37,611 nt of DNA from an uncultured Candidatus Saccharibacteria bacterium (GCA_964617035.1 CAZTWB010000002.1:1-37611); one strand, 5' to 3'. Shown: positions 22,195 through 35,662, counted from the first letter of the stretch. Numbers and translations are program-made. Notes: generated by a model from the sequence alone, not told the origin.

Positions 22195-22302
22195 GGGGCA
22201 ACATACTAAACATAAGCCACGCATTACGCAATCAATCCTACAACTCACAAGATGGTGCGTTGCGTCAATGCATTTATTAAGGCGGTGAGGTATTATATAC
22301 TA

Positions 22303-22848: not shown

Positions 22849-22860
22849 TAAGAAACTTTC

Positions 22861-23151: not shown

Positions 23152-23546
23152 GACACGTCTATCCTGTTTAGTTGGCCTTTGTTTTTGATGATGTCTTTGT
23201 AATTCCACTGAATATCATGGGCTTTTTGAAGCCAGCGTTTGACATCTGATTCGTTAATTTGCGACACATCTGTGTATTTAATTTGAGCCGCTTTAAACTT
23301 GCCTTCATTCTCTAAACCTGGCTCGTCAAAACTCTGCCCACTCCAAAACAGTAGCGCCACACCGTGTTTACGCACCCAATAGCCTACAACTGGGTTGCCA
23401 TCAATAAACCAAACCGGACCACCGTGCCAGAGTTTATTGGTAGAATCGGCTAGATTATCTTGGATTAGCTGAGCAAGTTGCCGGCAGATTGCAATATTTG
23501 GACTAACTTGGTCTTCATTATACTTAATTATTGTAGAATCTAACAT
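23148..23546 (-). CDS. DUF1801 (YdhG-like) domain protein
   Basis: KLWHGGPVWFIDGNPVVGY ... ALLFWSGQSF pattern typical of DUF1801. Confidence 0.55.
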   Translation of the reverse strand: MLDSTIIKYNEDQVSPNIAICRQLAQLIQDNLADSTNKLWHGGPVWFIDGNPVVGYWVRKHGVALLFWSGQSFDEPGLENEGKFKAAQIKYTDVSQINESDVKRWLQKAHDIQWNYKDIIKNKGQLNRIDVS

Positions 23547-23555
23547 CTTAACTAA

Positions 23556-24026
23556 CTATCTTCTTAAATCGGTGATGATGATCTTTTTCATTTTCATCAT
23601 ATTTTTAAACGCTACCGGATCATTAACGATTGTATTATCAAAATCTTCGGGCGTTATTTGCCAACTCAGACCGTATTTATCTTTACACCAACCGCAAACG
23701 CTTTCTTCACCGCCATCAGTCGTGAGCTTGTCCCAGTAGTAGTCTATCTCGGCTTGGTCTTTACACATGATCATCAGCGAAATCGCTTCGTTAAATGTAA
23801 AGTTATCGCCCGCATTGAGCGCGGTGTAGCGTTGTCCGAATAATTCAAAATCGATTGTAAGCGGCTTACCGGCAAATTCCTGCTGAAAATCTTTTAAACC
23901 TTCTGTTGGATAATTAGATTGCCCAAGCTTTTTACTGTCTGGGAAAACTGATAAATAAAACTCAACAGCCTCCTCGGCGTTATTGTTAAACCATAAGCAC
24001 GGTACGATTTTTTGTGAATTTGCCAT
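23556..24026 (-). CDS. VOC/glyoxalase-superfamily protein (PhnB / 3-demethylubiquinone methyltransferase-like domain)
   Basis: KIVPCLWFNNNAEEAVEFYLSVFP ... CGWCKDKYGLSWQI is the characteristic signature. SD TAAGGAG upstream. Confidence 0.7.
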   Translation of the reverse strand: MANSQKIVPCLWFNNNAEEAVEFYLSVFPDSKKLGQSNYPTEGLKDFQQEFAGKPLTIDFELFGQRYTALNAGDNFTFNEAISLMIMCKDQAEIDYYWDKLTTDGGEESVCGWCKDKYGLSWQITPEDFDNTIVNDPVAFKNMMKMKKIIITDLRR

Positions 24027-24046
24027 AACTAGTTCTCCTTATATTA

Positions 24047-24523
24047 TTACGCTTTCTGAGCTATCTTTTCGAGTGATTCAAGTGCCTGTCTCCATCCGTC
24101 TTCCATGCCGCTTTCTACCATGCCCTTCAGGTCATCTTGGCTTTGATAGGTGGATATGGTTTTGATTTCAGTCGTATTTTCATCGATTGTGTGGAAGGTC
24201 ATTTTCTCAAGTGCAACATGCCCCCGTTCGGGAAGACCCAAGAATTCAAATGTCCAAATTATTCGCTCGTTGTCTGCTACTTCGTGAAACGATCCACAGA
24301 ACATAAACTCATTGCCTTGTTCGTCGGTATTGGTCATACTGAAGCCCCCGCCGTTTTTGGCATCAAAACTGTGCAACGTTACTTTTGCTCCGCCGCCCAT
24401 CCACTTAGGGAATAGATCTTTATCTGTGTAGGCTTTAAAGACTTTCTGGAGTGGCGCGTTGATCATGGCCGTGCCAAGAATGTTTTGTGAGTTTGCTGGT
24501 ACTTCTACTTTTAATGTTGCCAT
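24047..24523 (-). CDS. SRPBCC-superfamily protein (AHSA1/Aha1-like domain)
   Basis: Fold signature INAPLQKVFKAYTDKDLFPKWMG ... W.FEF ... GWRQALESLEK. Confidence 0.72.
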   Translation of the reverse strand: MATLKVEVPANSQNILGTAMINAPLQKVFKAYTDKDLFPKWMGGGAKVTLHSFDAKNGGGFSMTNTDEQGNEFMFCGSFHEVADNERIIWTFEFLGLPERGHVALEKMTFHTIDENTTEIKTISTYQSQDDLKGMVESGMEDGWRQALESLEKIAQKA

Positions 24524-24540
24524 GGCGGTTGTTCCTTTCG

Positions 24541-25062
24541 TTAGTTAACTTTCGTTGCGGTTAATAATTCTTCGAGCTTGTCGAGCGTCTGAGCGTAGCC
24601 TTCCTTCATGCCCATTTCTAGCACGGTTTTCAGACCTTCCACTGTGTCATAGTGGGTGTCGACCGTAAGTTTGGTTAGGTTATCGCCATTTGGTACGAGT
24701 GTTACGACCGTTCGCGAACTAGGTAATTCCTCGTTCACTGTGCCGTTGTCATCGGTGAAATAATCGGTGTACTCAAAAGCATCTTCGGGGTTGATTTTGC
24801 CAAACGCCATCTTTCCGGCGCTGGTTTTGCCGTACCATTCACCCTGTGACTCATCCTCACATTTCATAACGTAAATGTACTCACCGCCCTCTATGAAATC
24901 ATGTGATTTTACTTCTGTTGACCAGCCTTTTGGTGCAAACCATTGTGCCAGCATAGTGGGGTCGGCGTAGGCCTGCCAGAGTTGGTGCTGACTAGCTGGG
25001 AATGTCCTCTCTATACGTAGCGTTTTGCTATCGTCTAGTATCGTAAAATTTGTTTTATCCAT
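24541..25062 (-). CDS. SRPBCC-superfamily protein (AHSA1/Aha1-like domain), second copy
   Basis: RTFPASQHQLWQAYADPTMLAQWFAPKGW ... GYAQTLDKLEELL. SD AAAGGAGG upstream. Confidence 0.72.
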   Translation of the reverse strand: MDKTNFTILDDSKTLRIERTFPASQHQLWQAYADPTMLAQWFAPKGWSTEVKSHDFIEGGEYIYVMKCEDESQGEWYGKTSAGKMAFGKINPEDAFEYTDYFTDDNGTVNEELPSSRTVVTLVPNGDNLTKLTVDTHYDTVEGLKTVLEMGMKEGYAQTLDKLEELLTATKVN

Positions 25063-25064
25063 AG

Positions 25065-25388
25065 TTAGTCCTCCTTTAATAATGCTTCTAATTTATCGAA
25101 CCGCTCGCCCCACATCTGAGCATAGCGATCGATGTGCTCGCGCGCGATGCCTACGGTGGCTGGCACAATTATCACAACCTGCTCCCTCCCTTGCCGTTTT
25201 TTAATGATCAAACCAGCACGCTCCAGCACTTTGATGTGCTTAGATATTGCCGCAAAAGTCAGCTGGTAATGCTCAGCTATTTCACCAATACTCATTTCAA
25301 TTTTGGCGACTCGTTCCAAAATATTGCGCCTAGTACTGTCCGACAGAGCGGTAAAAAGTAGGTCTAGTTGTTGCGTTCGTTCAACCAT
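25065..25388 (-). CDS. ArsR/SmtB-family winged-helix transcriptional regulator
   Basis: LFTALSDSTRRNILERV ... MSIGEIAEHYQLTFAAISKHIKVLERAGLI. First gene of the minus-strand cassette. ATG at 25388 is preferred over 25421. Confidence 0.85.
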   Translation of the reverse strand: MVERTQQLDLLFTALSDSTRRNILERVAKIEMSIGEIAEHYQLTFAAISKHIKVLERAGLIIKKRQGREQVVIIVPATVGIAREHIDRYAQMWGERFDKLEALLKED

Positions 25389-25397
25389 ATAGTTGAA
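25380..25397. promoter_or_regulatory. Perfect 6-6-6 inverted repeat TTCAAC-CATATA-GTTGAA overlapping the ArsR start codon (candidate auto-operator)
   Basis: Read directly from the sequence. The equivalent site in the pseudogene copy (about 15415-15432) is degenerate (TTCAAC-N6-GTTAAA on the coding strand). Confidence 0.35.
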
Positions 25398-25469
25398 TAA
25401 TACAGTTATCCGATATGTCATGTCAAGCCTTGCGTTTCATCTTACATGTTTGCCGCAAGTGACACTTAA

Positions 25470-25688
25470 TTAATAGTTGACTGTTCGTGGTTGTGCGCCG
25501 TCAGCTGGGCCGATTAGTCCTTCGGCTTCCATTTGGTCTAGGATCTCCGCAGACTTTGCATAGCTGATTTTGAGATCGCGTTGCAGCAATGCTACTGAAG
25601 CTTGTTTCTTGAAGCCAATCAATTCTTTTGCTCGTCGATAGGTCTCATCGGGTGCGCAATTGTCCGCCGAGCCCCCATAATACGACAC
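25470..25688 (-). CDS. FtsK/SpoIIIE gamma (winged-helix) domain-only ORF: gene remnant or stand-alone protein
   Basis: DETYRRAKELI..KKQASVALLQRDLKISYAKSAEILDQMEAEGLIGPADGAQPRTV matches the FtsK C-terminal gamma domain. GTG start, with an in-frame TAG two codons upstream. No ATPase domain. Confidence 0.55.
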   Translation of the reverse strand: MSYYGGSADNCAPDETYRRAKELIGFKKQASVALLQRDLKISYAKSAEILDQMEAEGLIGPADGAQPRTVNY

Positions 25689-25732
25689 GGTCTAGGTCAT
25701 TTTGCAGGTGATTTATAAGAGGTAATAAATAG

Positions 25733-25787
25733 AAAAATGACCGGTCATAGGAACACGGTCTTTTTACCTCTTGCTGAGTTTGGCTCC
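25733..25787 (+). repeat. Direct repeat DR-L (att-like): copy of the tRNA-Asn 3' end (7 nt) plus its terminator/3' flank
   Basis: 25739-25787 is identical to 35546-35594 (49 nt). The match extends to 55 nt with one mismatch. Ends in TGGCTCC with no tRNA body beyond it. Confidence 0.85.
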
Positions 25788-25806
25788 CCGTAACGCTCAC
25801 GGAACA

Positions 25807-25884
25807 ATTACAGGTGTCGCGAGGCACAAAATGAGACAAATGAGACACGAAACACACATATTTTTCATGTCTCGTTTTTGTGCC
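25807..25884. repeat. Conserved intergenic element, copy B (core at 25833-25856) with its own imperfect 16/17-nt inverted repeat
   Basis: Same 24-nt core as copy A. Arms GGCACAAAATGAGACA (25823-25838) and TGTCTCGTTTTTGTGCC (25868-25884) are near-complementary. Confidence 0.8.
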
Positions 25885-26036
25885 GGGTTTTGCGAATAAA
25901 TATCGCAACTTAACACGCACAATGATTAATGCCGATCAATTGTTAGATGCAGCTTATCCTTGCCTAGTTCCAAACTGCCCTTTTCGGGTCGGCATGATTG
26001 CATAAAATAAACTCAGGTGACATAGTATTGTTCATA

Positions 26037-26651
26037 ATGAAAAATGTCTTCATGCTACAAGGCTTCAGTAAAGATCTGGCATTCGATGACCCAAGTCTAG
26101 ATTTGCTTCGTGAAGCCATGGCCGAACACGATATTCAATTACATGGTGTTGAAAACGGCTGGAAGGATTATGGTATTAGAAGCTTTGGTATGCGTGCAGT
26201 TGAGCAATACCATGACTATCCGTACAAAGGGATACTTATTGGGCATTCGCTTGGTGCCTTGGCTGCTTTAAGTGTCCTGGAATTTATGCCAGTGCGACAT
26301 CTTGTACTTTGTTCGCCCTCAGCACTATTTAGTGAAGATATAAAATCGGGTCTCGACCCTCTGGTTGCCGTCCGTATTGGGAAAAAACGTATACAGGAGC
26401 TATCGAGCTTTTCAGTGGCAGAGGCTGTCTCTAGTGTTAATCGGCTCGGTATGCCCACTACTATAATGTTTGGAGAAAGAGAGCGAGTATTGCACCCTCG
26501 CCTGGTTTCTCGTAGTTGTGAGCTCGCGGACAAGATTGTAAACGCAACTCTTTTAGAAGTGCCTGGTGCCGGTCACTCCATAGGAGAAAATCCATATGCA
26601 TTTGAATTGTCGGTGGTTATGGGTGCTATTGCTGACAGTATCAACGACTGA
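26037..26651 (+). CDS. Alpha/beta-fold serine hydrolase (small, ~204 aa)
   Basis: Nucleophile elbow GHSLGA and C-terminal PGAGHS His context. ATG at 26037 is preferred over the TTG at 25998. Confidence 0.6.
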   Translation: MKNVFMLQGFSKDLAFDDPSLDLLREAMAEHDIQLHGVENGWKDYGIRSFGMRAVEQYHDYPYKGILIGHSLGALAALSVLEFMPVRHLVLCSPSALFSEDIKSGLDPLVAVRIGKKRIQELSSFSVAEAVSSVNRLGMPTTIMFGERERVLHPRLVSRSCELADKIVNATLLEVPGAGHSIGENPYAFELSVVMGAIADSIND

Positions 26652-26772
26652 GTTTACTGTATATTCATGAGCACAACATCAGTATATTAACGTCATTAAT
26701 TGTTGCTATGCAGGTAGTGAATGAAAGTGAGGTGATCATAAGGATTATTGGTGTCAGCACAAGACTGGGCTA

Positions 26773-27423
26773 CTAATTGATTTTCCACCATTCAACAGCC
26801 TTCATCCCTAGATTCAAAGGTGATATGTACTTTGCGGCTTCACGTGGGTCATCATTAATGCTTCCATCATACGCTCGTCCTGCATTCGAGAAGCGAGATC
26901 TGATGCTTTCTTTTAGTTTTCTGAATTCGACGCTCTCCTTATCAAATGGCAGTCGCGAACTAAAGCTTTGGACAGGCTGAAAAAACAAGAATGTAGTATT
27001 GGGCTCGTGAACGTGGCGAGGATTGTCGGCAGAATATAATGAGCTGAAAACAATAGTAAATAAGCGTTGCCCTGATATAGTTAACTGCCAGCCTGGATCT
27101 TCTATATTTTCAGTGAATAAAGCTTCATCGCTGGATCCATCATTTATTTTTAGTGCATGGTAGATGGACCTAAAGCCGGCGGCTAAAGAATTCAAATCAT
27201 TACCGATTACATTGTTCGAGAAAGCAACAGCAAGGCCATCTGGTGCCGTCGTGATACCTTCTTTGACATAGGAAGAAATATCTTCGTAAAGCCTCGTGGT
27301 TGTCTCAGATTCACTAAGATCACCACTAACGGGTCGTGCAAATGTGATTTCTGCTGATCTGGCAAATGGGCAGTATGTTTCGGACTTAATAGTTAGGAAT
27401 ATGTTATTTAGTTGTTCGCTCAT
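26773..27423 (-). CDS. YqcI/YcgG-family protein (family includes heme-dependent N-oxygenase-type enzymes)
   Basis: Colinear with the family landmarks: TYCPFAR (vs YPCYFG), WQLTISGQRLFTIVFSSLY..NPRH......FLFFQP, IRSRF...RAYD, REAAKYI. ATGA overlap with AlaRS-like-1 (27420-27423). Confidence 0.7.
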   Translation of the reverse strand: MSEQLNNIFLTIKSETYCPFARSAEITFARPVSGDLSESETTTRLYEDISSYVKEGITTAPDGLAVAFSNNVIGNDLNSLAAGFRSIYHALKINDGSSDEALFTENIEDPGWQLTISGQRLFTIVFSSLYSADNPRHVHEPNTTFLFFQPVQSFSSRLPFDKESVEFRKLKESIRSRFSNAGRAYDGSINDDPREAAKYISPLNLGMKAVEWWKIN

Positions 27424-28583
27424 AAAGAACTCTGCATTAATTGAAGTAAACTAGACTTTATGCCAAATGTTGCATGCAATTCAGCTGGAGATAGGTCCGG
27501 ATTTTTTGCTTTGGTAGTAGTAATATTAGATAGTATGCGACGCAATGCATTTTCCTCTGACACCACTGCCTCCGTTATGATTGCTGGATTAGCTGCGTTT
27601 TCCAAGAAATCACCCATAGCATCTTTTACGCTGACAAAATCACCCGATTGTAACCAGACTGTCTCGATAAGTGATCTAATCATCTTTCTGAGTGCATACC
27701 CGTGCTTTTTTTTGCTCGGTACTAACCCCTCTGCGGTTAGTTCGTCTATAACACAGCAGATGTTAGCCATATAATGAGCATCACCGTCTGTTATGCCTTC
27801 AAATTGAGATTTGAATTGATCGGATAGATTCCTCCAGGTTCGCATTGAATGTTCATTGTCCCCAGTTAGGGCCAGTTCCAACCTGCTCATCCCAAGGCCA
27901 ACATCAAAAGCGTTATACTCAAATTCTCGTAGTTCACCTTTTTCAGTAACACCATCTATATGAACAATACGCCCAAGCTGTATGCACTCAGATAGCTCAG
28001 GCTCATTTTGATACCCTGTCTCGGAAAACCACGCAATAATACCACGCCCGTGTAAGTCTCCCTCCCCAAAACTCCACTCATGCTGCATTGCGCCCGGGTC
28101 ATCAAATATACGGACCTGCTCAGCAGCCAATGACGATTCTGCAAGTGCAGCATTTAATGCATGGCCTCCTATCGATGAGAAAATTAGATTCTGCTTATCT
28201 AGTCCAAGAGCGTCGAGTGTGTCCAAGAAGTAGTTTACGGCGTCATCGTGACCAATCTCGAAAACACCACTGCCTAACATTTCAAATAGCGAGGTGTAAT
28301 TAGTATTTCTACGCGCTGCTTCTGGTGTACCGCCCGTACCGCCTAGGCGTAAGCACCTCTGAGATAGCGCAAAGTTAGTAAACGCTAGCTCCCCGGAAAA
28401 CATTGGTTTGAATGGTGTTATGGTTGCATTCGTGAACAACAGAGTGGGGTCTTCAATTACGAGTGGAAATGATTCGTGGATCTCAAACCCGTTGTCGCGG
28501 TGGTATTCAAGAAATGATGATCTTGCGGATTCTATGCTATTCACTCCATTCACACTCCGAATTAGTAAGTACGCCGTACTCAT
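27420..28583 (-). CDS. AlaRS-like class IIc catalytic-core paralog 1 (387 aa, divergent, no editing or C-Ala domains)
   Basis: DPTLLFTNATITPFKPMF, SQRCLRLGG, TSLFEMLGSG, DVGLGMSRLELAL and GLVPSKKKHGYALRKMIRSL align with the AlaRS motifs. The GDxGPCGPCxE and EIWNxVFMQ blocks are replaced (GEGDLHGRGIIAW; IQLGRIVHIDG). Confidence 0.75.
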   Translation of the reverse strand: MSTAYLLIRSVNGVNSIESARSSFLEYHRDNGFEIHESFPLVIEDPTLLFTNATITPFKPMFSGELAFTNFALSQRCLRLGGTGGTPEAARRNTNYTSLFEMLGSGVFEIGHDDAVNYFLDTLDALGLDKQNLIFSSIGGHALNAALAESSLAAEQVRIFDDPGAMQHEWSFGEGDLHGRGIIAWFSETGYQNEPELSECIQLGRIVHIDGVTEKGELREFEYNAFDVGLGMSRLELALTGDNEHSMRTWRNLSDQFKSQFEGITDGDAHYMANICCVIDELTAEGLVPSKKKHGYALRKMIRSLIETVWLQSGDFVSVKDAMGDFLENAANPAIITEAVVSEENALRRILSNITTTKAKNPDLSPAELHATFGIKSSLLQLMQSSL

Positions 28584-28651
28584 ACTATATCATAAATATA
28601 TGATACCTCAAAAAATCTTGCTTATCACTGATGAATTACATGTTAATTCTA

Positions 28652-29266
28652 TCAGGCTATTGTCCAGAGTTTGCCCTGACCTATTTTTTCACTTGAAGTG
28701 CTTATGTGCCATGCAGCAGATTCTCCTAGTGCAACAAAAGGCCGATATGAGCCATCTTCCGACCATATTTTCTTTGCTCTATTGAATGATTTTTCGTTTG
28801 CATGCACAAGTACGCCAACTGGGACGATACCCCAACCTTGCTTGAGCTCAAAAGAGCCACCGTCTTCGTCTATGTAAAATTCGGATAAGGCCTGTGCGCC
28901 GGCACTCAATCCAGCAACGTGCACTCCTCTGCTAATTGCTGCTCGAAGGTGCTCAACAAGCCCCCATTCTTTAAACACTCTCAGTAAATTCTCTGTATCA
29001 CCCCCGCCAATGTAAATAACAGATGCTGAATCCAGTACATTGATAGCAAACTCTTTACCTTTATCTACTGTTGGTACTATTACATTATACTGCTTTCCAA
29101 ATACCAACCTGATTGCGTCGGCGTAATCTGTGTTATCACTAGATGCAAACCCGATAAATACAAACGTTGAACCCTTAGGTGATAACGAAAGAATTTCTTC
29201 ATCAATTATCTTTGTTTCTCTATTTCTGAGTTCACCGCCACCGATTAGGTATATATTGCTTCTCAT
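28652..29266 (-). CDS. Peptidase S51 family (PepE / cyanophycinase-like serine peptidase)
   Basis: IYLIGGG ... VIYIGGGDTENLL ... HVAGLSAGAQAL (nucleophile Ser in GxSAGA). ATGA overlap with the upstream oxidoreductase (29263-29266). Confidence 0.8.
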   Translation of the reverse strand: MRSNIYLIGGGELRNRETKIIDEEILSLSPKGSTFVFIGFASSDNTDYADAIRLVFGKQYNVIVPTVDKGKEFAINVLDSASVIYIGGGDTENLLRVFKEWGLVEHLRAAISRGVHVAGLSAGAQALSEFYIDEDGGSFELKQGWGIVPVGVLVHANEKSFNRAKKIWSEDGSYRPFVALGESAAWHISTSSEKIGQGKLWTIA

Positions 29267-30714
29267 ATACTATCTCTTACAACAGGATTTAGGTTGTTAT
29301 TCATTTGGGCGTTAGACCTGCAGATAGCGCTCATTATTTTAACTGGTATTTCATGCGTGTCTATATTTGATTTTACGTTTTCTAGCGTAATCTGACCAGT
29401 CATGAAGTCGATAAACTCACGAATAATACGATATTTTGTGTTCTCGATTGTTAGCCGATGAGTCTCCCCTCTGTGTTCAAGGTCCTGTGATGATATCTTT
29501 ATATAGGGCTTACCCTCACCATACATACCTATGTTTCGGAATACGTAGATATCAAAGTGATTGTTACCCCCGACGTCAAACTCGTTAATGTTGTCGATGT
29601 CATGTTCGTGCTTGGATTGATAATTATGAATCTGGATGCATTGGAACGGACCTTGTTGGATAATGAACTGCTGATGTTTAACGCGGCCGTTACCTTTATA
29701 AAGATCTTCATTTGGTGGCGCCCAGGATCGTCTCGAGAAACTGCTGTGAAGGAGGTTAATTGAGATATTGCAAATATTAACACCTTGTTTCATTAAACGA
29801 ATTATACTGAACGCATCTATCTCTCCGTAATCGGTAACTTTATCTAGATACTGTTCGTTTGTAAGGCCTGTTTTTTGGAATTGGTTGCCGAAGTACCTAA
29901 TATAATCGTCCTCAGTAATGCAGACATCTAGGCCAGCTGGGTTAAGTGTTGAAGAAAGTACTTCTATCCCATCTGGTTGCTTTTCTGGTACGAGACTAGA
30001 CTGATACAATTGCCAGGCCATGTCAAAGAGATGATATCCACTATGTGATATTTTACCAAAACCATCTGAAAGTCCGTGCGATTCTTGGGTGAGGACTTCT
30101 TTTGGAAATCGCCAGGATCCATCCGCATGCATAATCTGCATTGATGTTATCGGAACATTAAATTTTTGCGTAGTCTCTGAAATTAGCTCCTTTACCTTGT
30201 CGAATCCCTTGTCGTATCTTCTCTGTACGTTGATTGAAAAGAGTGTCTGTTTAGTAGGCCGATAGGATTGATAGAGTTCAAGTAGTTCGTAATAATCACT
30301 CAAAAGGCCCTTAGCTTCAGTCGTGTCAACGCTAAGCTTCTTGCGTGCAGATATTGGCTTGTCCATGAGTATGTTCAGTCCATTACTAAGCGCCCACGCT
30401 GCGTATGCTTTATGCGCAGTAGGTTCTGTTGAGATGATTACTCCTTTAATGTCAAATTTTCTTACTAGTGTGTCCAGTTTTGCTTTAACGTGACTTGGAA
30501 CTCCAGTGCTCACATCAAATGGATTGAGATACATCATATCAAGTTTGTATTTTTGTTTTTTAAGATAATCGTCGATAGTATCTTTTTGACCCAAAAGATC
30601 AACTGCTGCGACTAGACGCACGGGGAGATTTAATGCAAACGTAAACAATGCTGGTGCATATATGCGCCTAGCGTGCGGGCCAAGACCGATGAGTAGTACG
30701 TTAGAAGTTTCCAT
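29263..30714 (-). CDS. Gfo/Idh/MocA-like NAD(P)-dependent oxidoreductase with an extended C-terminal domain
   Basis: Rossmann start VLLIGLGPHARRIY, then GVIISTEPTAHKAYAAWALSNGLNILMDKPIS (an EKP-type motif written DKP). The ORF opens at 30741; the ATG at 30714 fits the family N-terminus. Confidence 0.7.
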   Translation of the reverse strand: METSNVLLIGLGPHARRIYAPALFTFALNLPVRLVAAVDLLGQKDTIDDYLKKQKYKLDMMYLNPFDVSTGVPSHVKAKLDTLVRKFDIKGVIISTEPTAHKAYAAWALSNGLNILMDKPISARKKLSVDTTEAKGLLSDYYELLELYQSYRPTKQTLFSINVQRRYDKGFDKVKELISETTQKFNVPITSMQIMHADGSWRFPKEVLTQESHGLSDGFGKISHSGYHLFDMAWQLYQSSLVPEKQPDGIEVLSSTLNPAGLDVCITEDDYIRYFGNQFQKTGLTNEQYLDKVTDYGEIDAFSIIRLMKQGVNICNISINLLHSSFSRRSWAPPNEDLYKGNGRVKHQQFIIQQGPFQCIQIHNYQSKHEHDIDNINEFDVGGNNHFDIYVFRNIGMYGEGKPYIKISSQDLEHRGETHRLTIENTKYRIIREFIDFMTGQITLENVKSNIDTHEIPVKIMSAICRSNAQMNNNLNPVVRDSI

Positions 30715-30784
30715 TTTTATACTATAATAGCGGTAGTGCATTTAGGTGCAAAGAGCACGGAGCATACCTAAAATATCTGAAATA

Positions 30785-30793
30785 TGTTATAAT
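30785..30793 (+). promoter_or_regulatory. Extended -10 promoter element TGTTATAAT upstream of the oxygenase-like gene
   Basis: TGnTATAAT consensus read at 30785-30793, ~40 nt upstream of the ATG at 30834, in the divergent intergenic region. Confidence 0.4.
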
Positions 30794-30833
30794 ACAAGAT
30801 ATCACATTGCACAGGTTAGGACAATTATAGTTT

Positions 30834-31649
30834 ATGGCTAATGCAGAAAATCAATGGAACGTAGTACATTTGGGCCAGGAAGATTCCGAGCAAGCATGCG
30901 CATTATTGCCTGAATTGGCAAGGAATGAAATTGCGGCGCTAAAAATAGGCAAGTTTTTGTGCGATCAAGAGCTGGTAGTCATCAAAGCAAACGTGGTATC
31001 CAAAAACATAGCGTGGTATGAAAATAAGACAAATCAACAGGGTAGAATTGGCATAAACGCTACTGGATTTAGCCATCTTCCTTGTGGCAAGCAAATGTAT
31101 TTTGAGGCCACACCGAAAGCTGAACAAGAACGAGATGAGATATTCGAAGGGACTCAGAGCCCTATTCATAAAATAATTGAATTCTTTGGCAGTGGGTTTG
31201 ATGCAAAAACGGCTACAGAGCCCGAGCTAGCAGAAGCGAGATACTTCACGGGCCTAATTCGTGCAATGGGCGCCAAAAGTACACTACACTTTGATTATGC
31301 CCCAAAGCAGCTTCCTGGCTGGAGTGTCGCTAATGCGGATGAACAATTTGGTCTTGTTTTGTATCTCCAGATGCCAGAAACGGGCGGAGAGCTAAATATA
31401 TATGATCATTCATGGGCTCCAGAAGACGAATGCTTTAACAATGATCATGTTGAAAAAGGTACATTTGGGTTTACAGAAGGTTTCTTAGGTGACACGCAAT
31501 ATGCTTCAGTACTGCCGTCAGAAGGCGATCTCGTAGTATTTAAGACTCGGAACTTTCACCAGGTCGCCGAGATCAATTCCGACAAGCCAAGATTGGGTCT
31601 AACTACATTCATGTCGCAGCGTGGCAGTACTCTCTCTTTGTGGAGTTAG
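30834..31649 (+). CDS. Fe(II)/2-oxoglutarate-dependent oxygenase-like protein
   Basis: Candidate facial triad HxD...H (TLHFDYA ... RNFHQVAEI) and basic residue (PRLGLTTF) in the expected order. No stronger family signature recognised. Confidence 0.5.
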   Translation: MANAENQWNVVHLGQEDSEQACALLPELARNEIAALKIGKFLCDQELVVIKANVVSKNIAWYENKTNQQGRIGINATGFSHLPCGKQMYFEATPKAEQERDEIFEGTQSPIHKIIEFFGSGFDAKTATEPELAEARYFTGLIRAMGAKSTLHFDYAPKQLPGWSVANADEQFGLVLYLQMPETGGELNIYDHSWAPEDECFNNDHVEKGTFGFTEGFLGDTQYASVLPSEGDLVVFKTRNFHQVAEINSDKPRLGLTTFMSQRGSTLSLWS

Positions 31650-31657
31650 CTTGCTAA

Positions 31658-32482
31658 CTAACGATTGTATGAATCGAAGAAATTCTTGAATTTCTTCATT
31701 ACTTCATTGGTAACAATCCCCACCCTACCGTCACCTACAGCCGTCTCTGTTATTTTTGTAACTGGCATGACTTCTTTACCTGTAGCAGTAATAAAGACTT
31801 CGCTTGCACTCAGCAGTTCATCGACCGTGAAATCACGTACTTTCACTTTTACGGATAAATCTAGATCATTTAATATAACGCTGCGCGTAATACCTTCTAA
31901 AATTTTCGTTTTAGGAGTTGTGAGAATCCCATCTATTAAGGCAAAGATATTAGACCTTGTTCCTTCTCGTACAAAGTTGTTCGAAAAGTAAATAATCTCA
32001 TCAATATCATGTGGGGCTGCATTCATAGCACGAATTGCCTGTACATAGTTGGTTGTCTTGGCTTGTGGCTCGTATCGATCAAACTCGCTAAGCAAAATAT
32101 GTACGCCATTTATATAATCTTCAAGCGGACATAGTATTCGAGGTTCGCTGATGATAATAATTGTGGGTGTGTCCGCAGGTGTAAGTGTGCCAGATGGGCC
32201 TCCAGAAATAATCACGCGCATGACTATATCTGTGCTGCCTAGATTATTCGCATCTACAGTCTGTAGTACCCAGTCAGCGACCTGATGTTTTGACCAAGGT
32301 ATATCTAGTGAGATAGCCTGACAAGAATTAAATAGTCTATCAAGGTGTCTGTCCATCATAAATGGTCGACCCCTCGTAGTAATCATAAACTCAAAAGCAG
32401 CATAGCCACGTGAGTAGCCAAGGTCACGGGGAGATATCAGCAAATGGTCATCATTGACAAGATGGCCATTTAAAAAGTGCAT
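31658..32482 (-). CDS. Class IV (fold type IV) PLP aminotransferase (BCAT / D-amino-acid aminotransferase / ADC-lyase family)
   Basis: DLGYSRGYAAFE, catalytic Lys context QAKTTNY, EGTRSNIF, ILEGITR, and FITATGKEVMPV. ATG at 32482 is preferred; the ORF opens at 32506. Confidence 0.8.
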   Translation of the reverse strand: MHFLNGHLVNDDHLLISPRDLGYSRGYAAFEFMITTRGRPFMMDRHLDRLFNSCQAISLDIPWSKHQVADWVLQTVDANNLGSTDIVMRVIISGGPSGTLTPADTPTIIIISEPRILCPLEDYINGVHILLSEFDRYEPQAKTTNYVQAIRAMNAAPHDIDEIIYFSNNFVREGTRSNIFALIDGILTTPKTKILEGITRSVILNDLDLSVKVKVRDFTVDELLSASEVFITATGKEVMPVTKITETAVGDGRVGIVTNEVMKKFKNFFDSYNR

Positions 32483-32529
32483 GTTTATCATATAAATACT
32501 ATACACCAGGCCTGAGCTGATGTAGTGAC

Positions 32530-33849
32530 CTAAGAACGCAACGCGTGTTCGCGTTGGGCGTTGATATATTCGTCTTCGGGAAATATGACACCACCCCTAA
32601 TGCATGCTTCACGAACTAAATCTGCTGGAATGCCGTGAGTTGCGTGTAGCGTATGAACATCAGCTCCAGTAATCTCCCCTCTGTCAATAAAGGGTTTTAG
32701 TAGTTTGGTCCCGCGCGTGAGTACCTTAGAGAATGCTTGCTGCTCGATTCGAAGTATTTCCCTAGTTTCCTTTTGACTACTAGTCGCACCAGGTATTTTG
32801 GGGAGGTGTTCCTGTGCAGCTTCCTGGTAATCCGTTAGTTTTTCCTGGGTTATGTCGTGTTGGGCCATGATGCTCATGCTACGGCGTAGTAGTCTCCTTA
32901 ATACATAGGCTGCTGCTTTGTTGGCTGGCGTCACTCCAGACTGAAGTAGAATTTCCGATGTGCGGACATGATCAGTAATGATACGGGCACTACGTTCGTT
33001 GTGAGTATCAGCAAAAACGGTGTCATAGACAGGCAGCCACCGATCGATTTGATGAATACTTGGTGCATCTTGTAATACCATGGCAAACCGCTCTAGCCCG
33101 GCACCTCCATCTACGCTACGTGATTTTAGCGGAATTATTTCCCCTTCTTGATTCATGAAATACTGCATGAAAACACCAGCATTCCATATTTCTATATGTT
33201 GACCATTCCGAAGCTGCTGATCAATGTCATCGGAATCTGCAAAATCTTGGCCACGATCATAGAATACTTCTGTGCATGGCCCACAAGGTCCGCTGTCACC
33301 GGCAGGACCCCAGAAATTATCTTTGGCAGGAAGTGCAACAATACGTTCATTTGGCAAGAAACGTTGCCATGCTGCGATGGATTCAGTATCTCCGGGGATT
33401 CCCCTAGTCTCCTCTTCGCTATTAAGTACGGAGGCGGACAGACGTTCTGGTTCAAGACCGAAACCCTCAGTAATTAGTTCGTATGCGAGTTCTATTGCGC
33501 GCTCTTTGCTGAACTCTGGTCCAAACTGCCACGACCCCATCATATTAAAGCTAGTGCCGTGATGTGGGTCGCCTATGTCATCAATGTCACCAGTACGTAT
33601 GCAGTTTTGGACATTAGTGAGTAGGTTTGACGGAGGGGTTTTGTCACCAGTAAAATAAGGCTTCATTGGAGCCATGCCGGAATTTATTAGGAGCAATGTC
33701 GGATCGTTGTCTGGAATTATACCGCTATCTGGGTAATGGGTATAGCCACGTGATGTATAGAAATCAATATATATTTCTTGAATCTCATCAGTTGTCCGGA
33801 ACGTTGGTTTTTGCTCGCTCAACTCTTGCACTCCTATCTTTACCACCAA
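32530..33849 (-). CDS. AlaRS-like class IIc catalytic-core paralog 2 (439 aa, motifs intact, no editing or C-Ala domains)
   Basis: DPTLLLINSGMAPMKPYF, NCIRTGD, DNFWGPAGDSGPCGPCTEVFYD (GDSGPCGPC = nt 33274-33300), IEIWNAGVFMQ, DGGAGLERFAMVLQ, and ANKAAAYVLRRLLRR. Start is ambiguous (TTG 33849, GTG 33846, or TTG 33822 with GGAG 8 nt upstream). Confidence 0.85.
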   Translation of the reverse strand: MVVKIGVQELSEQKPTFRTTDEIQEIYIDFYTSRGYTHYPDSGIIPDNDPTLLLINSGMAPMKPYFTGDKTPPSNLLTNVQNCIRTGDIDDIGDPHHGTSFNMMGSWQFGPEFSKERAIELAYELITEGFGLEPERLSASVLNSEEETRGIPGDTESIAAWQRFLPNERIVALPAKDNFWGPAGDSGPCGPCTEVFYDRGQDFADSDDIDQQLRNGQHIEIWNAGVFMQYFMNQEGEIIPLKSRSVDGGAGLERFAMVLQDAPSIHQIDRWLPVYDTVFADTHNERSARIITDHVRTSEILLQSGVTPANKAAAYVLRRLLRRSMSIMAQHDITQEKLTDYQEAAQEHLPKIPGATSSQKETREILRIEQQAFSKVLTRGTKLLKPFIDRGEITGADVHTLHATHGIPADLVREACIRGGVIFPEDEYINAQREHALRS

Positions 33850-33890
33850 CCATTATTTGATATTCGTAGAGATTACTATGACACAGTATG

Positions 33891-33904
33891 ATTGATTAAT
33901 CAAT
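33891..33904. promoter_or_regulatory. 14-bp perfect palindrome ATTGATTAATCAAT upstream of AlaRS-like-2
   Basis: Read directly. It lies in the 68-nt gap between the DUF2779 copy-2 stop and the AlaRS-like-2 start. Confidence 0.3.
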
Positions 33905-33917
33905 TGGTGTGTAGTGT

Positions 33918-35266
33918 TCAGGGCTGATCTGCAAAAAACACCCGCAGTTTTCTGTAGATTTCAACCATAGCGAGGGTGTCTAGTTTACAGTACTCTATGA
34001 GATCGTTCAGGATTTGGTCCTTTTGCTCAGCTCGTTTGCCGTCCAGTATGGCTTCCATCCAGAGTCGTTGCGCCGATCCGCCCTCTTGGATACCGAGTTC
34101 TTTGTAGGATAACTCAGGACAAAGTACAGGCAGCACCTGTTTGATACTGGCACTGCCTTCAAAGCGTGGGTCATCGTACCATTTTTGCTTGAATGGAATC
34201 ATTAGGTCTACGATGCGGTCGTTTATGGCTTCCATCGCTTCTTTGTATTCTGGCAATAATTCACCAAGCTCGGTATTGCGAGCCTTCTCGAATCCTTCAT
34301 ACCATACAATCACACTCCCGGTGTCGCCAATGTCTTTAATAAGCTGTTGGGCAAGTGGTCGAGCAGGGTCAGAGTTATCGCGATGCAAGTATTCTTTTTG
34401 GATGAGTTTGGTATCGGGTGATTTGAGAATATATAACGAATATTGAAATGGTATCTGCTGATATGGGCGGTGACCGTCGAAGTGTGGAATGAGCCCAGAC
34501 ATTGTTTCGTAATCGAGAAAATATAGCGGATATTTCAGCTCATCCAAGAACTGCTTGATCTCATCGTGCTGAATGGCTGGTTGCAGGTCTGTCGGATAAT
34601 CCACTGGTTCTTGCGGCACGATGTTAGCGTAGATCTTTAGCCAATCATATCTTGATCCAAGCTTGGCCAGCTCTGGATTTGGATCGGGCATTGTTAGTCG
34701 CTTTGCAACTTCGAGTGCCATAGGCATATATTTGGCAGTCAGCTCGCCTTTGGCGCGAACTTTTTCAGTTACGTCCTCAGTGTGGGTAATCTCATTAGCC
34801 TTTATCTCACCTTGGCGAACATATTTGTTGTTGACATGTATAACGTAGATGTTACGAACTTTCAACCCCGAGCCCTCTAATACTGCTGTCTGAAATGCAA
34901 GGTCGAACTCGTGCTCAGTCTTGACGCTAGTACTGGCTTTGATCTCGTATAAATCTACTTCTTTATCTCCGACAAAACTGACGATGTCGCATATACAGGT
35001 AAAATCTTGCCATTCGAAACGTGGCTGGAATAAGACTTGGTCGCCTCGTGTGATAGCGTCTTGGGTGCGTTGCGGTAATGATAGGTATTCATCATAATCT
35101 GAAAAACCAAGGGCTACACCTTCAGGAAATAACGACTCAGCATATGGCTCAAACTGATGCCCTGCGTCAAACATTGCCTGGGTATTTTTTCACCTTGCGA
35201 AATATGACATCAGTACAGATAAACTGCAGCCACTGGCAACTTATGCAGATTATGTATTGTCATCAT
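33918..35266 (-). pseudogene. DUF2779-family paralog (copy 2) with a disrupted 5' end
   Basis: The 418-aa ORF (33918-35174) is roughly 70% identical by eye to residues 38-449 of copy 1. Upstream, an ATGATG at 35261-35266 opens a 18-codon ORF in another frame (MMTIHNLHKLPVAAVYLY-stop). An in-frame TGA sits at 35190-35192, and there is a 1-nt deletion relative to copy 1. Confidence 0.6.
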
Positions 35267-35539
35267 CAGACGCAAAGTTGATAACAGAACTAGTTCAAGG
35301 TATTCATACAAAGTTTGCTCTCAAGGGCGGCAAAATCGGTATCGCTTAACAGTTTATAAATACTGATCTTGACCGATAATTTTTGTTGATTGTGATAGGG
35401 ACCGGACACGGACTAAATTAACAGGGATAATGAAGTTTGGCACGGTCTCGGAACCCGGTCGCTAAACTAGCTGCTGAATCGTCATAATGTGGTACGGTCT
35501 TGGTTGTTTTGAGGGTCAATTAACAGAGGTGAAACTAAC

Positions 35540-35572
35540 AAAAAAGACCGGTCATAGGAACACGGTCTTTTT
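35540..35572. terminator. Bidirectional intrinsic-terminator-like hairpin downstream of tRNA-Asn
   Basis: A6-GACCG-(12-nt loop)-CGGTC-T5. On the minus strand the stem extends to AAGACCG/CGGTCTT and is followed by T6. An identical copy lies in DR-L (25733-25765). Confidence 0.5.
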
Positions 35573-35594
35573 ACCTCTTGCTGAGTTTGGCTCC
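35540..35594 (+). repeat. Direct repeat DR-R (att-like), overlapping the tRNA-Asn 3' end
   Basis: See DR-L. Positions 35588-35594 (TGGCTCC) are the complement of the tRNA 3' terminal GGAGCCA. Confidence 0.85.
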
Positions 35595-35662
35595 GGGGAT
35601 AGGATTCGAACCTACGACCTAGTGGTTAACAGCCACCCGCTCTACCGCTGAGCTACCCCGGA
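35588..35662 (-). tRNA. tRNA-Asn (anticodon GTT), CCA encoded
   Basis: Folded by eye: acceptor TCCGGGG/CCCCGGA (7 bp), D stem GCTC/GAGC, anticodon stem GGTGG/CCACT with loop CTGTTAA, T stem GTAGG/CCTAT with TTCGAAT loop, discriminator G, and CCA. 75 nt. Confidence 0.92.

What the first reader, a model, noticed from the sequence alone, without database searches (positions are those of the whole stretch)
25733..35662. 49-nt perfect direct repeat containing the tRNA-Asn 3' end brackets a ~9.8-kb island that carries the AlaRS-like cluster
Seen in sequence: GACCGGTCATAGGAACACGGTCTTTTTACCTCTTGCTGAGTTTGGCTCC is identical at 25739-25787 and 35546-35594, in the same orientation. Identity extends to 55 nt with one mismatch. 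In the right copy, the final TGGCTCC (35588-35594) is the complement of the 3' terminal GGAGCCA of tRNA-Asn(GTT) (35588-35662, minus strand). The rest of that copy is the tRNA terminator hairpin and 3' flank. The left copy has the same 7 tRNA nucleotides but no tRNA body. Established knowledge: a partial tRNA 3' end duplicated kilobases away in direct orientation is the classical attL/attR scar of site-specific integration at a tRNA locus. Inference: 25788-35545 is horizontally acquired. No integrase or recombinase ORF is visible inside, so the island is either immobilised or mobilised in trans. The tRNA-proximal end, where an integrase normally sits, holds ~365 nt of non-coding DNA plus the decayed 5' end of a DUF2779 nuclease gene.
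Basis: partly seen in the sequence, partly recalled or inferred. Interest (0 to 1): 0.72.

Follow-up and report, generated by a model that had tools for sequence, protein, structure and literature searches.

The report
Decayed integrated island beside tRNA-Asn
The 49-base repeat is real and marks the two ends of about 9.8 kb of acquired DNA inserted right after a tRNA-Asn gene in a Saccharibacteria genome. This is an ordinary kind of genomic island, notable mainly because its broken integrase is a serine recombinase that sits beside tRNA-Asn in many Saccharibacteria.

Summary
A perfect 49-nt direct repeat lies at 25739-25787 and 35546-35594. The right copy overlaps the last 7 nt of tRNA-Asn(GTT).

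The repeat is not a dispersed element. Its 22-nt core was found in 8 other Saccharibacteria contigs, once each, always about 20 nt downstream of tRNA-Asn.

- **Integrase remnant.** 35182-35346 encodes the last 55 residues (95% identity) of a large serine recombinase (LSR). In every homologue locus examined, this recombinase lies 0.2-3.6 kb from tRNA-Asn.
- **Conserved module.** The repeat is the best-conserved ~50 bp of a ~200-bp tRNA-Asn-linked module that travels with this recombinase.
- **Larger extra segment.** Compared with the nearest relatives, the extra DNA spans 22178/23164-35586. It looks like two stacked, decayed islands.
- **Independent occurrences.** The same AlaRS-like cluster island is bracketed by an equivalent repeat in a second genome (L029). 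In a third (L020) it is joined at the same nucleotide.

Composition is host-like. This is a new member of a known kind: an SCCmec-like, LSR-associated island at a tRNA. LSR catalysis and the exact crossover point are inferred, not shown.

The parts
35588..35662 (-). Intact tRNA-Asn(GTT). Its last 7 nt (GGAGCCA) are inside the right repeat copy.
   Evidence: ARAGORN; Rfam tRNA 71.6 bits. Homology with relatives L001/L002/L004 resumes exactly at 35587.
35546..35594 (.). Right (tRNA-proximal) copy of the 49-nt repeat: a 22-nt conserved site/hairpin, a 20-nt spacer and 7 nt of tRNA.
   Evidence: The core is invariant in 8 other tRNA-Asn loci. It folds as a weak hairpin flanked by A and T runs but is not called by the terminator scan.
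35381..35545 (.). Remainder of the tRNA-Asn-linked module. It holds a second GGTCW-AGGAAC-GGTCW-type site, TAACAG blocks and a degenerate tRNA T-arm relic at the left edge.
   Evidence: nhmmer profile hit 35381-35592, E=4e-55; alignments A2/A3. No Rfam family matches.
35182..35349 (+). C-terminal 55 codons plus stop of a large serine recombinase gene. The first ~371 codons are deleted.
   Evidence: tblastn and BLASTP give 52/55 identical to residues 372-426 of the intact 426-aa LSR of L005. The L005 protein has Resolvase, Recombinase and Zn_ribbon_recom domains.
33918..35174 (-). DUF2779 (Cas4/RecB-like) gene lacking about 37 N-terminal codons. Its truncated 5' end abuts the LSR remnant at a deletion junction near 35175-35186.
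   Evidence: Pfam. 80% identical to the L020 orthologue from its residue 38 onward. DNA homology to L020 and L025 stops at 35186-35188.
26773..33849 (-). Cargo cluster: YqcI/YcgG, AlaRS-like (387 aa), S51 peptidase, GFO/IDH/MocA-like, WelO5-like 2OG oxygenase (+ strand), class IV aminotransferase, AlaRS-like (439 aa).
   Evidence: Pfam. The same cluster is present at about 72% DNA identity in L019, L020, L028 and L029.
25998..26651 (+). Alpha/beta-hydrolase gene at the distal end of the island.
   Evidence: Pfam. Orthologues occupy the same position in L019 and L020 (56-68% aa), with same-length ORFs there in L028 and L029.
25788..25997 (.). Distal end of the island (CCGTAACGCTCACGGAAC...). 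It contains a conserved GAGACAAATGAGACACGAAAC motif at 25826-25859.
   Evidence: Homologous sequence follows TGGCTCC in L020 and L029. A motif repeat lies at 22143-22176.
25739..25787 (.). Left (distal) copy of the 49-nt repeat, ending with 7 nt of tRNA 3' end and no tRNA body.
25658..25738 (.). Diverged partial module (about 70% identical to the right copy). It is interpreted as the former tRNA-proximal end of an older island and is cut on its left by a deletion.
   Evidence: nhmmer hit 25656-25785, E=8e-23, to profile positions 90-217 only. 82% identical to L005.
25470..25688 (-). Stand-alone FtsK-gamma ORF. Its first ~12 codons (the CxxCGH motif) are replaced by module-derived sequence.
   Evidence: Pfam. 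Alignment with 7 homologues. DNA homology to L021 ends at 25650. In other genomes the gene is translationally coupled to an upstream DUF2779 gene.
22178..25469 (.). Older accessory segment ('island A'): DUF1697, DUF1905, DUF1801, 3-dmu-9_3-mt-like, two AHSA1, ArsR. Apart from DUF1905, it is absent from the nearest relatives.
   Evidence: blastn vs L001-L004; Pfam. AHSA1 (24541-25062) and ArsR are singletons at 90% identity.

Best explanation
The two 49-nt copies are the junction duplicates (attL/attR-type) left when a genomic island carrying the AlaRS-like cluster inserted immediately 3' of tRNA-Asn in a Saccharibacteria chromosome. The island belongs to a family whose tRNA-proximal end consists of a large serine recombinase gene reading toward the tRNA, then a ~200-bp conserved module, then a ~50-bp block. 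That block (conserved site, spacer and last 7 nt of the tRNA) is shared between element and target. Insertion within this block placed the new island between the tRNA and the module of an older resident island of the same family. The resident copy of the block was pushed 9.8 kb away and became the left copy. This stacking resembles composite SCCmec arrays. Both islands then decayed. One deletion removed most of the recombinase gene and the 5' end of DUF2779 in the newer island. Another removed the rest of the module, the recombinase and DUF2779 down to codon ~12 of FtsK-gamma in the older one. The island is now immobile unless a recombinase acts in trans.

Shown: the repeat, its exclusive linkage to tRNA-Asn, the recombinase remnant, the recombinase/module/tRNA-Asn association, the same junction in other genomes, and both truncations.

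Inferred: that the serine recombinase catalysed the insertion, that the crossover lies inside the ~50-bp block, and the order of events.
For: - The repeat is exact and non-random.
- The core 22-mer occurs once each in 2 GTDB species genomes and 6 metagenome contigs, always about 20 nt 3' of tRNA-Asn or of a tRNA-Asn fragment.
- The nearest relatives (CydA at least 90% identical, flanks 92-97%) have cydA-DUF1905-296 bp-tRNA-Asn. Homology with the window resumes exactly at the tRNA 3' end.
- An LSR remnant lies at 35182-35346. The intact homologue in L005 sits in the same position and orientation.
- Four LSR homologues chosen without regard to context (P0031, P0035, P0034, P0109) all lie 0.3-3.2 kb from tRNA-Asn with the module in between. 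The same holds in L010 and L011.
- L007 and L012 are 100% identical across the right flank, tRNA, spacer and site, but only 84% in the module and unrelated beyond. The module therefore belongs to the exchangeable side.
- L029 has the same cluster bracketed by a direct repeat starting with GGAGCCA of tRNA-Asn: 49/50 in the first 50 nt, 88% over 94 nt, 11,541 bp apart.
- L020 (island-linked) and L026 (tRNA-linked) are 88% identical over 231 nt and diverge exactly after TGGCTCC.
- The FtsK-gamma and DUF2779 truncations are documented.
- The best named relative of the LSR is CcrB of SCC elements (126 bits, far below the family cutoff).
Against: - No intact recombinase is present anywhere in the window.
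- No genome was found with the predicted empty site for this island (FtsK-gamma, module, tRNA-Asn). No circular junction was found either.
- Characterised large serine integrases leave only a 2-bp duplication and do not recombine attP with attL (my own knowledge). A ~50-bp shared block and stacking therefore require Ccr-like promiscuity or homologous recombination.
- The L029 island has an IS30-like transposase and no LSR.
- L019 carries the cluster next to tRNA-Asn without module, LSR or repeat.
- Composition is host-like.
- The nearest relatives lack the module altogether. The whole 22178-35586 segment may therefore have entered this lineage in one step by homologous replacement.
- A strain-chimeric assembly across the 49-mer cannot be excluded without reads.
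Confidence: 0.68

Rival explanations
1. The topology is the same, but the insertion was made by RecA-dependent Campbell-type homologous recombination. A circular or incoming DNA carrying the module crossed over with the resident module within the longest identical stretch (49-55 nt). No site-specific catalysis was involved.
For: Homology between the two copies extends beyond the perfect block (139 nt at 76%; 94 nt at 88% in L029). That is more than a serine integrase site needs. Serine integrases normally leave no long repeat (my own knowledge). Saccharibacteria are naturally transformable (my own knowledge, not checked here).
Against: The island side starts at the same nucleotide (TGGCTCC|CC) in three lineages whose modules and spacers differ. 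A conserved recombinase gene is consistently linked to the site. A 50-nt identical stretch is a poor substrate for RecA.
Confidence: 0.17
2. No integration took place in this lineage. The whole variable segment (about 22178-35586), already holding both repeat copies, was imported from a diverged Saccharibacteria donor by homologous replacement. The crossovers fell in tRNA-Asn and in the cydA-DUF1905 region. This concerns how this genome obtained the region and is compatible with the repeat having arisen by integration in the donor.
For: Homology to L001 breaks exactly at the conserved tRNA. DUF1905 is only 83% identical while neighbouring segments reach 92-97%. Relatives lack even the module. 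Island genes are singletons at 90% identity.
Against: Background identity along the contig already varies from 84% to 97%, so the dip at DUF1905 is weak evidence. This does not explain the origin of the repeat itself.
Confidence: 0.3
3. The 49-mer is a dispersed terminator or REP-like element that happens to occur twice.
For: It contains a hairpin flanked by A and T runs and could terminate transcription in both directions.
Against: All 15 other fetched loci with the site carry it once, next to tRNA-Asn or a tRNA-Asn fragment. The only exceptions are the distal island junctions in L020 and L029. The loop sequence is invariant, unlike terminators. The left copy includes 7 nt of tRNA. The simple terminator scan does not call it.
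Confidence: 0.02
4. Assembly artefact: two strain haplotypes of the tRNA-Asn locus were joined through the shared 49-55-nt sequence, creating a false tandem arrangement.
For: The region is hypervariable. Related contigs L003, L005 and L018 break inside or at the tRNA, as expected at a branching assembly graph.
Against: L029 carries both repeat copies on a 57.8-kb contig that recurs in 3 samples under both ENA and JGI. L020 independently shows the distal junction. A 49-nt repeat is shorter than the final k-mers normally used (my own knowledge).
Confidence: 0.05

Closest known systems
SCCmec / SCC elements moved by the large serine recombinases CcrAB or CcrC (staphylococci)
   Same: The recombinase is a large serine recombinase, and the best named NCBIfam hit of the family is CcrB. 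Insertion occurs at the extreme 3' end of a conserved housekeeping gene, which stays intact. Short direct repeats of the integration-site sequence bound the element. Successive elements stack into composite arrays separated by repeat copies. Cargo is variable and cassettes are often decayed or immobile. The SCC properties cited here are from my own knowledge.
   Different: The target is the 3' end and flank of tRNA-Asn rather than rlmH (orfX). The score to the Ccr models is far below the family cutoff (126 vs 900 bits), so it is not a Ccr orthologue. The shared block is about 50 bp and is accompanied by a ~200-bp conserved module with no SCC counterpart. The host is a CPR bacterium. No activity has been demonstrated.
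Classical tRNA-linked genomic islands with P4-type tyrosine integrases, for example the Yersinia high-pathogenicity island at asn tRNA genes (my own knowledge)
   Same: Insertion occurs 3' of a tRNA(-Asn) gene. A direct repeat containing the tRNA 3' end lies at the far boundary. The integrase gene sits at the tRNA-proximal end. The island is variably present among relatives and is immobilised by integrase decay.
   Different: No tyrosine recombinase is present. Only 7 nt of the repeat are tRNA and the rest is downstream flank. Composition is not atypical.
Large serine integrases of temperate phages and ICEs (phiC31, Bxb1, A118, TP901-1; TP901-1 is among the closest solved catalytic domains)
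   Same: The domain architecture is Resolvase, Recombinase and Zn ribbon. The integrase gene lies next to the attachment site at one end of the element.
   Different: Those enzymes use simple 40-50-bp attP/attB sites with only a 2-bp overlap, usually inside protein-coding genes, and leave no long repeat (my own knowledge). No phage or conjugation genes were seen here. No match was found in IMG/VR.

Membership tests
tRNA-linked genomic island bounded by attL/attR direct repeats (classical model) | Inserted at the 3' end of a tRNA gene that remains intact | tested here: met
   tRNA-Asn is intact. Extra DNA relative to L001/L002/L004 starts 1 nt beyond the tRNA 3' end.
tRNA-linked genomic island bounded by attL/attR direct repeats (classical model) | Direct repeat containing the tRNA 3' end at the distal boundary | tested here: met
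   A perfect 49-nt repeat includes the last 7 nt of the tRNA. An equivalent repeat is present in L029. The same junction is present in L020.
tRNA-linked genomic island bounded by attL/attR direct repeats (classical model) | Tyrosine (P4-type) integrase gene at the tRNA-proximal end | tested here: not met
   No Phage_integrase domain occurs in any ORF of the window. The remnant at 35182-35346 is from a serine recombinase.
tRNA-linked genomic island bounded by attL/attR direct repeats (classical model) | Absent from close relatives (variable presence) | tested here: met
   L001-type contigs lack 23164-35586; 4 places were shown and 20 more reported as similar. Island proteins are singletons at 90% identity.
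tRNA-linked genomic island bounded by attL/attR direct repeats (classical model) | Atypical base composition | tested here: not met
   GC is 0.429 against 0.38-0.445 elsewhere. The tetranucleotide distance is no larger than for other segments.
tRNA-linked genomic island bounded by attL/attR direct repeats (classical model) | Excision to a circular form and regeneration of an empty site | not testable with these tools
   No reads are available. No empty site for this island and no circular junction were found in the collections scanned.
Islands moved by large serine recombinases (SCC/Ccr-like) | Encodes a large serine recombinase (Resolvase, Recombinase and Zn ribbon domains) | tested here: inconclusive
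   Intact in related loci L005, L010, L011, L013-L018 and L026. In the window only the last 55 codons survive.
Islands moved by large serine recombinases (SCC/Ccr-like) | Recombinase is a CcrA, CcrB or CcrC orthologue | tested here: not met
   Best hit is NF047343 CcrB at 126 bits against a cutoff of 900.
Islands moved by large serine recombinases (SCC/Ccr-like) | Fixed integration site at the 3' end of a conserved gene, with repeat copies separating stacked elements | tested here: met
   LSR, module and tRNA-Asn are linked in every LSR locus examined. The junction is identical in three lineages. A partial older module and truncated genes lie left of the distal copy.
Islands moved by large serine recombinases (SCC/Ccr-like) | Recombinase acts on the repeat (crossover at a central dinucleotide) | not testable with these tools
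   The crossover can only be confined to the ~50-bp shared block. No clear dyad was found by inspection.
Dispersed REP or terminator-type repeat | Many copies at unrelated loci | tested here: not met
   All copies found are linked to tRNA-Asn or lie at the distal junction of the same island.
Known structured RNA family (for the ~200-nt module) | Match to an Rfam covariance model | tested here: not met
   Only tRNA passes. The remaining hits have E of at least 0.05 and score far below gathering thresholds. RNAalifold gives almost no covariation in either strand.

The most novel reading that the evidence does not exclude
Saccharibacteria may carry a lineage-wide, Ccr-like serine-recombinase system dedicated to the 3' end of tRNA-Asn. 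It would repeatedly stack defence and metabolic islands there. Its ~200-bp module has two GGTCW-AGGAAC-GGTCW sites 105-180 bp apart and tRNA-derived relics. The module could be a functional accessory element, either a protein-binding array or a small RNA, that controls recombination. Large serine recombinases are not known to need such an element. If so, the intact recombinases plus the ~50-bp block would be a ready-made site-specific integration tool for these hard-to-manipulate CPR bacteria.
Probability: 0.25. Interest if true: 0.6.

Novelty: new member of a known kind. Interest (0 to 1): 0.4.

Why it matters
For this window, the result shows that the AlaRS-like gene cluster is cargo of a decayed, immobilised island rather than core genome. 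It also shows that the cluster travels among Saccharibacteria at one fixed chromosomal address. More generally, mobile elements of CPR/Patescibacteria are poorly described. A conserved serine recombinase with a defined ~50-bp site next to tRNA-Asn in many Saccharibacteria would mark the main island hotspot of these reduced genomes, which here carries restriction-modification systems, toxin-antitoxin pairs and metabolic cargo. It is also a candidate genetic tool. The phenomenon itself, an island at a tRNA with direct repeats and stacking, is textbook.

Tried and rejected
- **Third repeat copy or further tRNA-Asn fragments in the window.** None found.
- **Rfam search of the module.** Gathering-threshold and permissive E-value scans returned only tRNA.
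- **Consensus folding of the module on both strands.** There was almost no covariation. The variable segment forms a clean hairpin in only some loci, so an RNA gene could not be supported.
- **Terminator and promoter scans.** The site is not called as a terminator. Folding z-scores are weak, -1.6 to -2.0.
- **Composition and tetranucleotide deviation.** No signal.
- **IMG/VR scans** for the 22-mer and for the distal-junction pattern. No hits.
- **Island A genes in all fetched loci,** searched in the hope of an empty site for island B. None found.
- **Exact look-up of the FtsK-gamma ORF.** Not on record.
- **A dif/Xer (IMEX) reading,** prompted by the FtsK-gamma gene and a CATAATG block. Rejected by inspection: the block is not conserved across loci and there is no XerD-arm-like half.
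- **The idea that the module is purely chromosomal,** with islands inserting at its left edge. Weakened by L007 vs L012 (module 84% identical while tRNA, site and right flank are 100%), by the break at the tRNA 3' end relative to L001, and by the L020/L026 comparison.
- **Literature searches** for Saccharibacteria with 'serine recombinase' or with 'genomic island' and 'tRNA'. Nothing relevant.

Full report
**1. Observation.**
The 49-mer GACCGGTCATAGGAACACGGTCTTTTTACCTCTTGCTGAGTTTGGCTCC is identical at 25739-25787 and 35546-35594 in direct orientation. Identity reaches 55 nt with one mismatch. Weaker similarity of about 70% runs roughly 90 nt further left (139 nt at 76%). The 22-nt core matches the window only at these two places at up to 3 mismatches, and never in 100 shuffles. 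The only tRNA is tRNA-Asn(GTT) at 35588-35662 on the minus strand. Its terminal GGAGCCA is the complement of the last 7 nt of the right copy. The left copy continues with CCGTAACG and has no tRNA body.

**2. Source and nearest relatives.**
The window is a complete 37,611-bp NCBI contig of a Candidatus Saccharibacteria MAG. Contigs carrying a CydA at least 90% identical to the window's (L001-L004, including a 939-kb contig) have the order cydA, DUF1905, 296 bp, tRNA-Asn, then a 2106-aa gene.

blastn gives these correspondences:
- Window 19890-22177 matches at 96.6%.
- 22867-23163 (DUF1905) matches at 83%.
- Nothing matches until 35587-37611, at 92.6%.

Homology therefore resumes one base beyond the tRNA 3' end. 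Relative to these relatives the window has 12.4 kb of extra DNA (23164-35586), plus a 689-bp DUF1697 insert (22178-22866). The six proteins tested from 24541-35174 are all singletons at 90% identity in the 15-billion-protein collection. Base composition and tetranucleotide usage of 25788-35545 do not stand out.

**3. The repeat is a tRNA-Asn-linked element, not a dispersed one.**
Exact scans for the 22-nt core found:
- 2 of 185,579 GTDB species genomes, both Saccharibacteria.
- 6 metagenome contigs.
- No viral contigs.

In each contig the core occurs once, about 20 nt downstream of tRNA-Asn. In L011 it follows a tRNA-Asn 3' half cut at the anticodon loop. In L005 the contig ends at TGGCTCC.

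Most of these loci also share about 165 nt to the left of the core. I call the whole ~200-bp stretch a module. The module contains:
- A second copy of a GGTCW-AGGAAC-N-GGTCW-type site.
- Two TAACAG blocks.
- A GCTGAG block.
- At its left edge, about 180-187 nt from the tRNA, a direct relic of the tRNA-Asn T-arm. This relic is significant in 7 of 11 loci, for example a perfect 14-mer in L016.

No Rfam family matches and consensus folding shows almost no covariation. The core folds as a weak hairpin between A and T runs but is not called as a terminator. Its loop is invariant. In a diverged lineage (L026) a different pairing register forms around the same AGGAAC centre. A protein-binding site or attachment site therefore fits at least as well as a terminator.

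**4. An integrase remnant is present.**
In L005 a 426-aa ORF with Resolvase, Recombinase and Zn_ribbon_recom domains ends 198 nt left of the site (about 240 nt from the tRNA 3' end) and reads toward it. It is a large serine recombinase (LSR). Window 35182-35346 (+ strand) encodes its last 55 residues at 52/55 identity, followed by the stop. The rest of the gene is gone.

The remnant abuts the 5'-truncated DUF2779 gene. The window protein starts at the residue corresponding to Met38 of the L020 orthologue. DNA homology to L020 and L025 stops at 35186-35188. A single deletion between two divergently oriented genes explains both truncations. No intact recombinase of any kind is encoded in the window.

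**5. The recombinase family is tied to tRNA-Asn.**
The LSR has thousands of homologues in Saccharibacteria; the 120 best listed are 59-85% identical. I looked up four without knowing their context: P0031, P0035, P0034 and P0109, at 77-60% identity. All sit 0.3-3.2 kb from tRNA-Asn in the same relative orientation. The module lies in between, with zero to four cargo genes. Restriction-modification, ParB-methylase or toxin-antitoxin genes lie upstream. L010 and L011 show the same arrangement.

L007 and L012 are 100% identical across the right flank, the tRNA, the spacer and the site. They are only 84% identical in the module and unrelated further left. The module therefore belongs to the exchangeable DNA, and exchange boundaries fall at or near the conserved block. 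The closest named family is CcrB of SCC elements, far below its cutoff. The closest solved structures are catalytic domains of a conjugative-transposon recombinase and TP901-1 integrase.

**6. The same island and the same junction occur elsewhere.**
The 439-aa AlaRS-like protein has 78-84% identical homologues in other Saccharibacteria. Their loci carry the same gene cluster at about 72% DNA identity.
- **L029.** The contig is 57.8 kb and recurs in 3 samples under both ENA and JGI. The cluster lies 3' of tRNA-Asn. It is bracketed by a direct repeat that starts with GGAGCCA of the tRNA. The repeat is 49/50 identical over the first 50 nt, 88% over 94 nt, with copies 11,541 bp apart.
- **L020.** The distal end reads ...TAGGTCTAGGAACTAGGTCTACGTTTTTCTCTGCTTGGTCTGGCTCC|CCATACAGGTCACGGAAC....
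- **L026 compared with L020.** The sequence left of the bar in L020 is 88% identical over 231 nt to the tRNA-linked module of L026. The two diverge exactly after TGGCTCC. L026 continues into the tRNA and L020 into the island.
- **L019.** The cluster lies 267 nt from tRNA-Asn, but behind an ordinary terminator. It has no module, LSR or repeat.

So three lineages whose modules and spacers differ have the island joined at the same nucleotide. In both genomes where the two ends are visible, the high-identity block is about 50 bp: 7 nt of tRNA, the spacer and the site. That reproducibility is the signature of site-specific insertion.

**7. What lies left of the distal copy.**
The 72-codon FtsK-gamma ORF belongs to a widespread family of 74-85-aa Saccharibacteria proteins with an N-terminal CxxCGHDxxKC motif. 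Elsewhere the gene is translationally coupled to an upstream DUF2779 gene inside similar islands. In the window its first ~12 codons are replaced by sequence read out of the module. DNA homology to L021 ends at 25650. The module profile matches only positions 90-217 at 25656-25785.

The left copy is therefore the stump of a former tRNA-proximal island end. A deletion removed the rest of that module, and presumably an LSR and a DUF2779 gene, down to codon ~12 of FtsK-gamma. The tRNA-proximal island shows the parallel architecture: module, LSR remnant, then DUF2779.

**8. Most likely mechanism.**
An island of this family, with the order distal end-hydrolase-cluster-DUF2779-...-LSR-module-site-spacer-7 nt, inserted within the ~50-bp block immediately 3' of tRNA-Asn. 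A resident, older island of the same family was already there. The resident block was displaced 9.8 kb and became the left copy. The incoming block now adjoins the tRNA and is the right copy. Deletions then inactivated both islands.

The structure and its recurrence are shown. Three things are inferred:
- That the LSR catalysed the insertion.
- The position of the crossover. It must lie right of 25738/35545 and at or left of the TGGCTCC|CC boundary.
- The order of events.

From my own knowledge, characterised phage-type serine integrases leave only 2 bp of shared sequence and do not use attL as a target. The ~50-bp shared block and the stacking therefore point to Ccr-like behaviour, since SCC arrays are built in this way. 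Alternatively they point to RecA-mediated Campbell insertion through the shared module (rival 1).

This lineage may have received the already composite 22178-35586 segment by homologous replacement, with one crossover in the tRNA (rival 2). That is compatible with the main explanation. A dispersed-repeat reading is refuted as far as the data reach. An assembly chimera is unlikely given L029 and L020, but cannot be excluded without reads.

**9. Comparison with known systems and verdict.**
The locus works like a tRNA-linked genomic island. Its closest mechanistic analogue is SCCmec: a large serine recombinase, a fixed site at the 3' end of a conserved gene, repeat copies between stacked cassettes and frequent decay. 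It is not a Ccr orthologue. It fails the tyrosine-integrase criterion and the atypical-composition criterion of the classical model.

I found no description of this recombinase/tRNA-Asn association in Saccharibacteria in the searchable literature. That library is incomplete.

The finding is a correct observation with a largely correct but incomplete interpretation. It is a new member of a known kind and of moderate interest. The interest lies mainly in the apparently lineage-wide LSR/module/tRNA-Asn hotspot in CPR bacteria and its possible use as an integration tool.

Noticed in passing
window 35381-35545 and 25658-25738; also L005-L008, L010-L016, L020, L026, L029: A ~200-bp module conserved next to tRNA-Asn. 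It has two GGTCW-AGGAAC-N-GGTCW sites 105-180 nt apart, two TAACAG blocks (the tRNA-Asn anticodon loop reads CTGTTAA), a GCTGAG block resembling the spacer, and a direct relic of the tRNA T-arm at its left edge. It looks like degenerate tandem copies of [tRNA 3' half + spacer + site], a possible fossil record of repeated integrations. Whether it functions as an RNA, as a protein-binding array or not at all is unresolved.
   Followed up: partly
window 22143-22176 and 25826-25859; L020 ~18780; L029 ~18360: A 34-nt motif (ACAAAA[A/T]GAGACAAATGAGACACGAAACACA) lies upstream of cydA and again upstream of the island's alpha/beta-hydrolase gene. It sits inside a long imperfect hairpin at 25822-25885. 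It is conserved at the island end in L020 and L029, and in diverged form upstream of cydA in L001. It may be a shared operator.
   Followed up: partly
L021 4514-6225, L024 479-2190, L025 6649-8237; window 25470-25688 and 33918-35174: DUF2779 (Cas4/RecB-like nuclease) and a 74-78-aa stand-alone FtsK-gamma protein with an N-terminal CxxCGH motif form a translationally coupled gene pair. The pair sits in Saccharibacteria islands rich in restriction-modification and ParB-methylase genes. Its function is unknown.
   Followed up: partly
window 26773-33849; L019, L020, L028, L029 (L030 is the same contig as L029 under JGI): The cluster comprises two truncated AlaRS-like proteins, class IV aminotransferase, WelO5-like Fe/2OG oxygenase, GFO/IDH/MocA-like oxidoreductase, S51 peptidase, YqcI/YcgG and an alpha/beta hydrolase. 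It is conserved as a unit in at least four other Saccharibacteria contigs. It lies 3' of tRNA-Asn wherever a tRNA was found in the fetched locus (L019, L029). AlaRS-like proteins of about 430 aa are widespread in Patescibacteria at 40-48% identity. The product or role was not investigated.
   Followed up: partly
window 344-11320: A second defence-island-like block: type I R-M (HsdR, HsdS, HsdM), DUF3800, RadC, GmrSD and a paralogous full-length DUF2779 (9971-11320). Its R-M genes are 68-70% identical in DNA to those that lie in the same island as the AlaRS cluster in L020. The gene set resembles the cargo upstream of the LSR in L026.
   Followed up: no
window 35838-37611: The orthologue of the 2106-aa Laminin_G_3 protein of relatives is read in two frames: residues 1-43 in frame 3 and residues 41-591 in frame 2. 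It also carries an in-frame stop at 37364-37366. It is either a pseudogene or contains assembly errors. Internal 49-nt repeats lie at 36839-36887 and 37007-37055.
   Followed up: partly
L011 (Ga0068855_100000184), locus 3970-4072: tRNA-Asn is cut in the anticodon loop. Its 3' half, the site and the module are retained. The 5' half is replaced by about 1.9 kb carrying an MGH1-like glycoside hydrolase gene. This is a different rearrangement at the same hotspot.
   Followed up: no
window 22178-22866: A 689-bp segment with a DUF1697 gene replaces 87 bp of the cydA-DUF1905 intergenic region of the nearest relatives. Its left boundary coincides with the 34-nt motif at 22143-22176.
   Followed up: no
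L014 1048-2643; L028 1-144: A second, longer large serine recombinase (531-534 aa, about 23% identical to the tRNA-Asn-linked family) lies about 7-10 kb away in some loci. In L014 it is in the same island region as the 416-aa LSR. In L028 it is about 10 kb from the AlaRS-like cluster.
   Followed up: no
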